This document shows, in pieces, positions 52,237-55,200 of a stretch of DNA of 64,000 bases (position 1 is the stretch's first letter; each line of letters starts with the position of its first letter). Source of the stretch: Escherichia coli. GTDB taxonomy: Bacteria; Pseudomonadota; Gammaproteobacteria; Enterobacterales; Enterobacteriaceae. The position numbers were made by a program. The stretch lies in assembly GCF_044324875.1 (NCBI RefSeq), contig NZ_CP172185.1. The stretch is one strand, 5' to 3'.

Positions 52237-55200
52237 TGACCACTACAAAACAGCATGGTCAGATAAAGTGGTTTTTCCCGGACATAAATGTTTCCCCTCT
52301 CTCATCCGCCAGAGAAGCATCAGTCCGTTGTGTGCAATTCCGTTCTGCATGATGAAGAGATTCAGCTGCCTTTTCGCAGACCATTAACCACTATAAACGA
52401 TCGATAGTAACGATCGATACCTGTTTTATCGATCGTTTTATTCTATTAACGGCAGGGAAGTCACGCAAGAGAAAGAGGTGGGTATGAGGGGGGGGGGGTC
52501 ATGTTTTCAGTTGGTTAACGCAATGTAATCAGGCATTTCCCCTGGCAGAGTGTTCAGAAGAAAATCCAGTTCCATACAGCGCGGGCAACAGAGACCACCG
52601 AGTCACGGACGGCACGCAGAACCGTGCGTGCAACAGAGGCAATACAGACGCTCTCCGCCGTGTCAAATATCCGGTCCACCGCACCGGTAAACTGTTCACG
52701 GGCCTGAGACCGGACAGATTCCGTGCGCAGCTCGTCCTGCAGGCGGGTCATCAGGGGACTGGCGGCATGGTCGGGAAGCGCTGTCATGAGCGCACTGACC
52801 AGCGTATCCAGTTCCCAGCCGGTGCGGGCCGATACGGCCACAACCGGATGTACGGGCCGGAACAGACGGAATACCGCCTCCGTTTTTTCGCGAATATTCT
52901 GTGCCTGTGCGGGAGAAGGCTGAATACCGGCCATATCCCATTCATGGCAGGGCTCCGTTTTGTCGGCCTGCGTCACCACAAACAGCACCTGCTGATGTCC
53001 CCGGTGCAGGATGTGTCGCCAGAAATACTCATCCACAGACAGGGCGCGGTCATCGGCTTTAATCAGCCACAGCACCAGGTCCAGTTCGGGCAGAATGTCA
53101 CGGTACAGGGCTTCATACTCTGCATCCCTGTCCCGGCTCTCGCCCACCCCGGGCAGGTCAGTGATAACCATGCTGTGACCGTGGCCACTCAGACGGAAGC
53201 GCCGCACTTCCCGGGTGCCGGCGTGAACATCACTGACCGGGGTGACCTCCCCCTGAAACAGTGCATTACAGAGTGAGGATTTACCGGCCCCGCTTTTACC
53301 CATAATGCCAATCACGGGTTCGTGACTGGTGAGTTTGCGCAGATGTTCCAGGATGTGACGGGAAAGTGAGTAAGGCAGGGAGGAGAGCGGTTTTTCAATT
53401 GCCTCAATGGCATCAGACGGATTCATACATGTATTCCCGGTGAAAAAAGACAAAACCCCGCGCACCGGAAAGGTGGCGGGGGATTCACGGAGATAATATC
53501 TGTCTGAAATTGTTTTGAATCGATGGGATTGTTGCGTATTAACATGAAGGAGATCAGGACTTATCCGTTACTGGGTGATCTCCTTCCATGAAAATACGCC
53601 GTTATTGTTAAACAGCAGGCTGATTTCTCCGTAAAGGGGAAAATATTTATCGGCTGTATGATTATCAGGTGTGTCTGTGTTTACTGCTGTGAGTATTTTT
53701 TAGTGTATTGTGGGGGAGATGTCAGTGGGAGATATTAAATTTACGTTTATAATTATCTTACTTCTTCTGTGTGTTTTTTATAAGAGTGCACACGTAATGA
53801 TATCTGTTGATACCATGTGGTTAAGTGTTTCCCTTCCTGGTCATGCGTAATGATTAAATGCTTTTGTGACACCATTCTTCCGGTCTGAATATTTATCCCG
53901 TTCTTTTTTATTTGTGCAGTGATACTGTCGGAAGAGAATTCAGTAATGTGAGGTGTCCTGGTCAGGATAATATCTGCTGAGATATTATTAGTTGAGGGTG
54001 TTTTTACTGAGCAAAAGCTGGCTTTTAATTCCTGTACTGAAACACTGTCGCTCGTCCGGGGTTAACTGAAACTGGATGATGATGTAAAATGAAGGCTGTT
54101 TTTGTGTTTGTCGAAGAAGTGTTATTTTAATCCATTCTCATCATTGGCTGGCGATTATACAGAAGTATTTGAAGAAAAAATGGTGCATTTTATCTGTGTC
54201 AGCAGGGAAGAAGTATTTTATTGATGTATCAGTATTAAATGGTTTTTGTTATTTATAAAAATGTCATCCTGTCCATAGAATATTGTACTCAGCATTCAGT
54301 GCAGGAACTGTAGTCTTCTTTATTTTATTCTTCTTCAGGAGGGGGGTGATTCCTGAAGGCGTTATTCCCGGTGTTCTGTTTATGATTCTTCCCGGCAGGA
54401 AACCGGTATCTGCAATACCCGGGATGATGCTTTTTGTTCGTACGTGGTTGTGTAAAATTTGAATAGTGGATGTGCTCCGAAGGGAAGGAGGGGACACACA
54501 GATTCATTTTGTCTTTCTTCAGCAGCAAAATACACTGTGGTTATTATTTAACCATTAAATCAACAAAAATTTTTACCTCATATTGATTTGACTGCTATTT
54601 TTGCTATTAATAGCCAGAATTGCAGTGCTTTTATATCTGTGTATAGTGAGGTTACTATGTCATTCGGTCAGCCTTGTGATGAGTTTCCCCTGAGTTCGCT
54701 GCCTCCACTCATTCGTGATGCCGTTATTGAAGCTCAGCAAATTACGCAGGCTCCCCTTGGGCTTGTGGCAGCGTCTGCCCTGGGCGCTGTTTCACTTGTC
54801 TGCCAGAATCTGATTGATGTCTGCAGACTGAATACACTGCGGGGGCCGGTCTCTCTTTTTTTCCTGACGCTTGCCGAGTCCGGAGAACGAAAAACCGCAG
54901 TGGACAAATTATTAATGAAGCCCCTGTACCAGCAGGAGATGCAGTTATATTCCAGATACAAAAGTGAACTGGCTGTCTGGAAAAACAAGGAAGAGCTTTT
55001 AAAGGCTCAGAAAAAAGCATTGTTGTCAAAACTGAATAAAGAACTCCGCAAAGGCGCGGATGAGTCAGAAACCCTCAGACAACTGGAAGTACTTCAGAAA
55101 AACAGTGCGGAAGAACCTGTGAGGTATAAATTCATTTTTAATGATGCCACGACTGCGGCAATTAAGAATCAGCTTTGTGGTAAATGGCGTTCAGTTGGTA

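What the first reader, a model, noticed from the sequence alone, without database searches (positions are those of the whole stretch)
52488..52498. G11 homopolymer next to the yeeP 3' end and the GATC cluster
An uninterrupted run of eleven G is unusual in E. coli and is the kind of tract that undergoes slipped-strand length changes. It sits in a regulatory-looking intergenic region. It is equally a classic sequencing-error hotspot.
Basis: seen in the sequence. Interest (0 to 1): 0.35.

Follow-up and report, generated by a model that had tools for sequence, protein, structure and literature searches.

The report
Recently evolved, length-variable G-run upstream of agn43
The eleven-G run is real and unstable in length, but it is a recent mutational by-product in the spacer upstream of the Antigen 43 promoter, found in about 1% of E. 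coli genomes, with no sign of a regulatory role, and the gene it precedes is destroyed here by an insertion sequence.

Summary
The G11 run is at 52488-52498 as described. It is the longest homopolymer in the window, and 0.02 such runs are expected by chance. It lies in the spacer of a selC-island (AGI-3-like) module. On the minus strand the order is: GTPase (yeeP-family) stop, 55 nt, C11, 19 nt, predicted agn43 -35/-10, three GATC sites. The tract is therefore about -55 to -65 from the predicted start and outside the 17-bp promoter spacer.

K-12 has no run here. About 2,585 of 5,426 complete E. coli genomes carry this spacer type. Most have GGTGTTTGTRT in the slot. Intermediates (G4, G5, G6, G8, G10, G11) form a stepwise series of T-to-G changes at the edge of the growing run. 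All runs of 8 or more G fall in one terminal clade. In that clade the tract is the only indel site, ranging from G8 to G13.

Two O103 strains differ in 12 kb only by G11 versus G9 and one SNP. The one genome sharing the window's IS junction (BEN2908) shows G9, but that assembly is full of nanopore-type homopolymer deletions.

In this window an IS3-family element has removed the start of agn43. Verdict: an ordinary hypermutable tract, probably neutral, and also a sequencing-error hotspot.

The parts
52488..52498 (+). G11 homopolymer (C11 in the sense of the GTPase and agn43 genes)
   Evidence: Read directly. Only run of 8 or more G/C in the window. Chance expectation 0.02. Length G8-G13 in related alleles.
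52488..52499 (+). The variable 'slot' between the conserved ...GGTATGA and CATGTTTTCAG. It is 11 nt (GGTGTTTGTRT) in most alleles and 12 nt (G11+T) here. The boundary T at 52499 is recurrently changed to G in other haplotypes.
   Evidence: Alignments and slot table.
52463..52468 (-). Predicted agn43 -35 hexamer TTGCGT (3 of 6 consensus matches), 19 bp downstream of the C-run in gene sense
   Evidence: Sequence geometry (positions corrected by hand). Aligns with TTGTCC at the same distance from the -10 in K-12. The tool's promoter scan did not call it.
52440..52445 (-). Predicted agn43 -10 hexamer TAGAAT, 17 bp after the -35; conserved between the K-12 type and this allele
52399..52434 (-). Three GATC sites (52431-52434, 52412-52415, 52399-52402), matching the Dam/OxyR switch region of agn43
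   Evidence: Sequence. Conserved in all alleles, K-12 included. Mechanism as summarised in PMC2909390.
52244..52398 (-). Remaining part of the agn43 5' leader, cut off by the IS at 52243/52244
   Evidence: Collinear with the intact allele L001 from 52244.
50990..52243 (+). IS3-family insertion sequence (1,254 bp). It replaces 1,050 bp of the intact allele: 62 nt of leader and the first 988 nt of agn43.
   Evidence: BLAST against the intact locus L001. Transposase ORFs. Annotated 'IS3 family transposase' in BEN2908.
48858..50989 (-). 5'-truncated agn43 (Ag43 autotransporter) remnant
   Evidence: ORF translation. Annotated as partial Ag43/Cah in BEN2908. Junction.
52554..53426 (-). GTPase family gene (yeeP/yfjP/ykfA family), co-oriented with and upstream of agn43. 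Its stop codon is 55 nt before the C-run.
   Evidence: ORF. RefSeq annotation of the identical sequence in L001.
52455..52532 (-). C-rich, G-poor, unstructured stretch of the minus-sense transcript (C 32, G 8, 21 YC dinucleotides) that includes the C-run; rut-like composition
   Evidence: Composition scan. No significant fold, z = 0.14. No intrinsic terminator between the GTPase stop and the promoter.

Best explanation
The G11 run is a young, selectively unimportant mononucleotide repeat. It arose in one sub-lineage of the agn43 upstream spacer and now changes length by replication slippage. The ancestral 11-nt slot was G/T-rich (GGTGTTTGTGT). Successive T-to-G substitutions, each at the 3' edge of the existing G run, converted it step by step to G4, G5, G6, G8, G10 and G11. 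This is the pattern expected from misalignment ('dislocation') mutagenesis next to a run. That mechanism is inferred, not shown. Once the run reached about 8-9 G it began to gain and lose units, giving G8-G13 among near-identical haplotypes. It lies about 55-65 bp upstream of the predicted agn43 start, outside the -35/-10 spacer and outside the GATC region that matches the Dam/OxyR switch. Length changes are therefore not expected to switch agn43. In this window agn43 is already inactivated by an IS3-family element. The tract is also a place where long-read assemblies miscount, so single-assembly lengths are unreliable.
For: - Presence and rarity.
- Context.
- K-12 has a different spacer with no run.
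- The spacer family is present in 2,585 of 5,426 genomes. The exact G-run haplotypes are few: G8TGT 2, G9T at most 12, G10T at most 12, G11T 13, G12T 3, G13T 1, and about 8 with the T-to-G boundary variant.
- A stepwise series of slot states appears in independent assemblies and metagenome contigs.
- A flank tree with the slot masked puts all runs of 8 or more G in one terminal clade nested in GT-rich alleles.
- Within that clade the tract is the only internal indel site in 690 nt across 15 sequences, and T-to-G at 52499 recurs on different haplotypes.
- O103 strains WL1467 and FWSEC0007 differ in 12,079 nt only by G11 versus G9 and one SNP.
- Geometry: 19 bp to the -35, and an invariant 17-bp spacer.
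- The published agn43 model needs only one OxyR site with GATCs (PMC2909390).
Against: - No expression or read-level data exist, so neutrality is inferred from distribution and geometry only.
- Part of the length spread in public assemblies may be error, as BEN2908 shows.
- Six A:T-to-C:G changes in one 11-nt slot could also reflect selection for a G/C run rather than mutational bias alone.
- Intermediates G5 and G6 appear in more than one flank subclade, so recombination or recurrence complicates the simple linear series.
- The -35 assignment is weak (3 of 6) and the tool's promoter scan found nothing.
- The 5'-RACE end reported for strain EC958 (228 bp upstream of the ATG, PMC4807369) does not map exactly onto my predicted start if the leader length is as in this allele.
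Confidence: 0.75

Rival explanations
1. The tract is a functional promoter-proximal contingency repeat. Slippage changes the phasing or affinity of something bound upstream of the agn43 -35 (RNA polymerase alpha-CTD or an unknown factor). This would tune agn43-yeeR-irmA expression as a genetic layer on top of the Dam/OxyR epigenetic switch.
For: The tract is hypermutable and sits at about -55 to -65, the zone of distal UP-element and upstream-activator contacts. Length varies among close relatives. The downstream operon encodes surface and secreted antigens (PMC4807369), a typical class for contingency loci.
Against: The tract is not between the -35 and -10, and that spacer is invariant. It is absent from K-12 and from about 98% of genomes with this spacer. 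It is derived and recent. No upstream activator features in the published model. No paper in the library links agn43 to a homopolymer. G/C runs are poor UP elements (general knowledge). It persists here next to a dead agn43.
Confidence: 0.07
2. In the minus-sense RNA the tract is a C11 stretch in the 3' untranslated region of the GTPase gene. There it strengthens a Rho-utilisation (rut) site, terminating read-through from the GTPase gene and insulating the agn43 promoter.
For: A 78-nt window around the tract has C 32, G 8 and 21 YC dinucleotides. It has no significant secondary structure. No intrinsic terminator lies between the GTPase stop and the promoter. Poly(C) is the classical best activator of Rho (general knowledge).
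Against: The same window is still C-rich and G-poor with the ancestral slot (about 27 C to 8 G by count), so the run is not needed for a rut-like composition. There is no termination data. This does not explain why only about 1% of genomes have the run.
Confidence: 0.07
3. The tract length in this window is an assembly or base-calling artefact, and the true length differs by one or more bases.
For: Homopolymers of this length are miscounted by several platforms. BEN2908, the closest relative at this locus, shows G9. Its paper describes R9.4 nanopore sequencing (PMC12928451).
Against: The error signature is on the BEN2908 side. All indels are deletions in BEN2908 at homopolymers or CCWGG sites, and its genes are annotated as frameshifted where the window's ORFs are intact. 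G11 with identical flanks is found in 13 other complete genomes. A run of 8 or more G certainly exists in this clade.
Confidence: 0.1
4. The run forms a G-quadruplex, or an i-motif on the other strand, in negatively supercoiled DNA upstream of the firing agn43 promoter, and this affects transcription or replication.
For: With the upstream GGG, G11 is exactly the minimum that satisfies the canonical motif G3-N5-G3-N1-G3-N1-G3. The G10, G9 and ancestral slots do not satisfy it.
Against: This is a pattern match only. The run is in duplex chromosomal DNA, G9 and G10 alleles are about as common as G11, and there is no conservation. The G-quadruplex-aware folding output was erratic and used RNA parameters.
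Confidence: 0.02

Closest known systems
Intergenic mononucleotide simple-sequence repeats that are polymorphic among E. coli strains (ordinary replication-slippage hotspots)
   Same: An uninterrupted homopolymer in non-coding DNA. Its length differs among near-identical haplotypes, and it is the only indel site in its neighbourhood.
   Different: At 11-13 units it is longer than any other run in this 64-kb window, where the maximum is 8. Its stepwise origin from a G/T-rich sequence can be traced in living alleles.
Promoter-located homopolymer phase-variation switches (for example poly-G/C tracts between -35 and -10 of Neisseria porA/opc, or the poly-C tract of Bordetella fim promoters)
   Same: A G/C homopolymer of 9-13 units close to the promoter of a surface-antigen operon.
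   Different: It lies 19 bp upstream of the -35, not within the hexamer spacer or at a known activator site. It is not conserved in the gene family. No expression effect is known.
Dam/OxyR epigenetic phase variation of agn43 (flu)
   Same: It is the same locus. The three GATC sites and the -10 region are conserved next to the tract.
   Different: The tract is not part of that mechanism. The K-12 allele on which the mechanism was defined lacks it (PMC2909390).
Run-extending substitutions and elevated mutation next to homopolymeric guanine repeats (dislocation mutagenesis; compare 'Mutation at a distance caused by homopolymeric guanine repeats in S. cerevisiae', PMC4928981, seen by title and abstract only)
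   Same: Every step in the series is a substitution that converts the base adjacent to the run into the run's base.
   Different: Here it is inferred from natural E. coli alleles, not measured. Selection or recombination cannot be excluded.

Membership tests
Slipped-strand (SSR) contingency / phase-variation locus | A simple-sequence repeat long enough to be hypermutable, with length polymorphism among close relatives | tested here: met
   G8-G13 among haplotypes differing by 0-18 substitutions. It is the sole indel site in 690 nt across 15 sequences. G11 versus G9 with only one other difference in 12 kb.
Slipped-strand (SSR) contingency / phase-variation locus | The repeat sits inside a reading frame, between -35 and -10, or in a defined regulator site, so that unit changes alter expression | tested here: not met
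   It is 55 nt after the GTPase stop and 19 bp before the predicted -35. The 17-bp hexamer spacer is invariant. Only a 13-codon ORF without a ribosome-binding site crosses it (read from the sequence).
Slipped-strand (SSR) contingency / phase-variation locus | The repeat is maintained across the strains that carry the gene | tested here: not met
   Exact run haplotypes total about 50 of the 2,585 genomes with this spacer type, and K-12 lacks the run. It is derived in one terminal clade.
Slipped-strand (SSR) contingency / phase-variation locus | Reversible high-frequency ON/OFF or level change linked to repeat number | not testable with these tools
   This needs reporter assays and colony-level sequencing.
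agn43 Dam/OxyR switch region | Three GATC sites within an OxyR-binding region next to the sigma-70 promoter of an Ag43-family autotransporter gene | tested here: met
   GATC sites at 52399-52402, 52412-52415 and 52431-52434, aligned with K-12. The downstream gene is agn43 in the intact allele. OxyR binding itself was not tested. The G-run lies outside this element.
Rho-dependent terminator (rut site) | About 70-80 nt of C-rich, G-poor, unstructured RNA downstream of a stop codon | tested here: met
   C 32 to G 8, 21 YC. Fold z-score 0.14.
Rho-dependent terminator (rut site) | Rho-dependent 3' ends downstream that are sensitive to bicyclomycin | not testable with these tools
   No transcript data are available.
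Canonical G-quadruplex motif | Four runs of at least 3 G separated by loops of 1-7 nt | tested here: met
   GGGTATGAGGGGGGGGGGG matches. The G10, G9 and ancestral slots do not. Formation in vivo was not tested.

The most novel reading that the evidence does not exclude
The run is a nascent contingency element caught in the act of being born. By changing length it would alter read-through from the GTPase gene (Rho loading on poly-C) or the upstream promoter context. This would add a heritable, mutation-based dial to the amplitude of an operon (agn43-yeeR-irmA) otherwise controlled by a purely epigenetic Dam/OxyR switch.
Probability: 0.06. Interest if true: 0.55.

Novelty: new member of a known kind. 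Interest (0 to 1): 0.2.

Why it matters
In practice, this tract is a trap for variant calling and assembly polishing in ExPEC, APEC and STEC genomes. One public assembly of the closest relative miscounts it along with dozens of other homopolymers. Biologically, it is a tidy natural example of how a long homopolymer is built from a G/T-rich sequence by edge-extending substitutions and then becomes slippage-prone. If length did affect agn43-yeeR-irmA expression, it would couple a genetic and an epigenetic phase-variation mechanism at one promoter, but nothing found here points that way.

Tried and rejected
- The sigma-70 and terminator scan of 52100-52800 found no promoter at its threshold and only GATC-region hairpins. 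The promoter assignment therefore rests on alignment with K-12 and hexamer geometry.
- Rfam found nothing at the tract. Its only hit, isrC, lies inside the IS.
- A genome-contig scan for outgroup alleles returned a single contig, filed under a Collinsella MAG, with the GT-rich slot. No true outgroup species was obtained.
- A viral-contig scan returned one contig, with G9T.
- A literature search for agn43 together with homopolymer or slipped-strand terms found no paper containing both.
- The key agn43 promoter papers (PMC135096, PMC2838033) are not held, so the mapped K-12 start site could not be cited.
- BEN2908's G9 was first taken as within-lineage variation. I rejected this after the error-signature analysis.
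- G-quadruplex-aware folding gave erratic output, so I used only the regular-expression result.
- I considered the reverse direction, a G-run decaying by G-to-T oxidation damage. I rejected it because the GT-rich state is shared by divergent, basal haplotypes.
- A 13-codon ORF reading through the tract (MTPPPSYPPLSLA) has no ribosome-binding site and was set aside.

Full report
**Observation.** The + strand carries eleven uninterrupted G at 52488-52498. It is the only run of 8 or more G/C in the window. Dinucleotide-preserving shuffles give 0.02 G11/C11 runs per window. No other homopolymer in the 64 kb exceeds 8 bases.

**Anatomy.** All relevant genes are on the minus strand.
- A GTPase-family gene (yeeP/yfjP/ykfA family) spans 52554-53426.
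- 55 nt after its stop comes the tract, which is C11 in gene sense.
- 19 nt further is a hexamer TTGCGT (52468-52463), then a 17-nt spacer, then TAGAAT (52445-52440).
- After that come three GATC sites at 52431-52434, 52412-52415 and 52399-52402.

This matches the Dam/OxyR switch region of agn43. The published model involves a single OxyR repressor site whose binding is abolished by GATC methylation (PMC2909390). With a start site about 7 nt after the -10, the tract spans about -65 to -55. The -35 is weak (3 of 6), and the tool's promoter scan called nothing. The assignment therefore rests on alignment with K-12, where TTGTCC-17-TAGAAT sits in the same register.

The module belongs to a selC-type island. 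The IrmA paper equates it with module 5 of AGI-3 of APEC BEN2908. That paper also shows that agn43-yeeR-irmA is one OxyR-repressed operon, with a 5'-RACE end 228 bp upstream of the ATG in EC958 (PMC4807369).

In this window an IS3-family element (50990-52243, 1,254 bp) has replaced 62 nt of leader and the first 988 nt of agn43. The promoter next to the tract therefore drives only about 190 nt of leader into the IS.

**Distribution.** K-12 (DH1) has an unrelated spacer between the GTPase stop and the -10, with no G-run. The window's spacer type occurs in about 2,585 of 5,426 complete E. coli genomes, but the exact 91-mer occurs in only five.

An alignment of 13 representative alleles shows that the usual sequence at this position is GGTGTTTGTGT or GGTGTTTGTAT. 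I then counted full-length exact matches to a 28 + tract + 40 nt query for each tract length:

| Tract | Genomes |
|---|---|
| G8TGT | 2 |
| G9T | at most 12 |
| G10T | at most 12 |
| G11T | 13 |
| G12T | 3 |
| G13T | 1 |

About 8 more genomes have the boundary T changed to G. Runs of 8 or more G therefore occur in roughly 1% of genomes.

**Origin.** Fetched loci and 13 metagenome contigs (mostly SPAdes-style short-read assemblies, judging by contig names) show a series at constant slot length 11:

GGTGTTTGTGT → GGGGTTTGTGT → GGGGGTTGTGT → GGGGGGTGTGT → GGGGGGGGTGT → GGGGGGGGGGT → GGGGGGGGGGG

Each step is a T-to-G change at the 3' edge of the growing run. A neighbour-joining tree of 570 nt of flanks, with the slot masked, places all runs of 8 or more G in one terminal clade. 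That clade is nested among GT-rich alleles, and the basal cah-type alleles are GT-rich. The run is therefore derived, not a decaying ancestral tract.

The T-to-G change at 52499 recurs on several haplotypes. A second small G-run nearby grows the same way in two contigs (A-to-G at 52458/52459). I interpret this as misalignment ('dislocation') mutagenesis at run edges. That is an inference from the pattern.

**Length instability.** Within the run clade, 15 sequences compared over 690 nt have internal indels only in the tract. Haplotypes differing by 0-1 substitutions carry G9, G11 or G13.

Two O103 strains, WL1467 and FWSEC0007, differ in 12,079 aligned bases only by G11 versus G9 and one SNP. 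Neither shows any other homopolymer indel. This is the best available evidence for genuine slippage within a lineage.

**Sequencing-error caveat.** The only complete genome sharing the window's IS/leader junction is BEN2908, and it shows G9. Over 11.8 kb, however, every one of the roughly 35 indels between the two is a deletion in BEN2908, either in a homopolymer of 4 or more bases or at a CCWGG site. CCAGG-to-CCGGG mismatches also occur. BEN2908 has five genes annotated as frameshifted where the window's ORFs are intact. The strain's genome paper describes R9.4 nanopore sequencing (PMC12928451). Whether the record I compared is the assembly described in that paper was not established. BEN2908's G9 is therefore not evidence of variation, and some of the public length spread may be error.

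**Function.** Nothing supports a regulatory role.
- The tract is outside the hexamer spacer, which is invariant across alleles.
- It is absent from the allele in which the switch was characterised.
- It is young and rare.
- It persists here beside an inactivated gene.

Two speculative roles were examined. First, the minus-sense RNA around the tract is strongly C-rich and G-poor (C 32, G 8 in 78 nt) and unstructured, and no intrinsic terminator follows the GTPase gene. The spacer may therefore be a Rho-dependent terminator. This composition holds with the ancestral slot as well, so the run is not required. Second, G11 is exactly the minimum that makes a canonical G-quadruplex motif with the upstream GGG, but G9 and G10 alleles are about as common.

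**Comparison with known systems.** The tract behaves like an ordinary polymorphic intergenic mononucleotide repeat. It resembles promoter homopolymer switches of Neisseria and Bordetella in composition and length. It fails their defining positional feature and is not maintained in the gene family. It is adjacent to, but not part of, the Dam/OxyR switch. No paper in the searchable library connects agn43 with a homopolymer tract.

**Verdict.** This is a real, derived G-run of variable length and a proven miscounting hotspot. It is most probably neutral and of low novelty. The traceable stepwise birth of the run is the only mildly notable aspect.

Noticed in passing
window 51058-51180 (+): Rfam isrC (RF01387, 'Hfq binding RNA') matches full-length at 147 bits, inside the 5' part of the IS3-family element (orfA region). 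This 'sRNA' family hit is therefore IS sequence here, not the K-12 yeeP-flu intergenic isrC.
   Followed up: no
window 50990-52243: A 1,254-bp IS3-family element has replaced 1,050 bp of the intact locus (62 nt of leader and 988 nt of agn43), leaving a 5'-truncated agn43. The same junction is present in only one complete genome in the collection, APEC BEN2908.
   Followed up: yes
L015 (NZ_LR740776.1, BEN2908) versus window 46100-57810: The public BEN2908 chromosome record carries about 35 single- or few-base deletions in homopolymers of 4 or more bases and at CCWGG (Dcm) sites, plus CCAGG-to-CCGGG substitutions relative to the window. This produces several 'frameshifted' gene annotations and looks like unpolished nanopore error.
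   Followed up: yes
window ~57810 onward: Collinearity between the window and BEN2908 ends abruptly near 57810, so the island content to the right differs from that record.
   Followed up: no
window 52499-52553: The 55 nt between the GTPase stop and the tract are almost invariant across alleles that differ markedly in the next 40 nt (slot and the -35 upstream region). The reason for this conservation is unknown.
   Followed up: no
window 52455-52460; L026 and L037: A second small G-run (GGGAAG) is extended by A-to-G changes to GGGGGG in L026 and GGGAGG in L037. This is the same edge-extension pattern as at the main tract.
   Followed up: partly
window 52461-52502 (-): A 13-codon ORF (ATG at 52502: MTPPPSYPPLSLA, stop overlapping the -35) reads through the C-run. 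With the ancestral slot length or G10T, the frame continues about 36 codons across the promoter and GATC sites. It has no ribosome-binding site and is probably spurious.
   Followed up: no
L039 and L040 (O103 strains), agn43 CDS: agn43 is annotated as frameshifted in both O103 assemblies, so this lineage also appears to carry a pseudogenised agn43 downstream of the tract.
   Followed up: no
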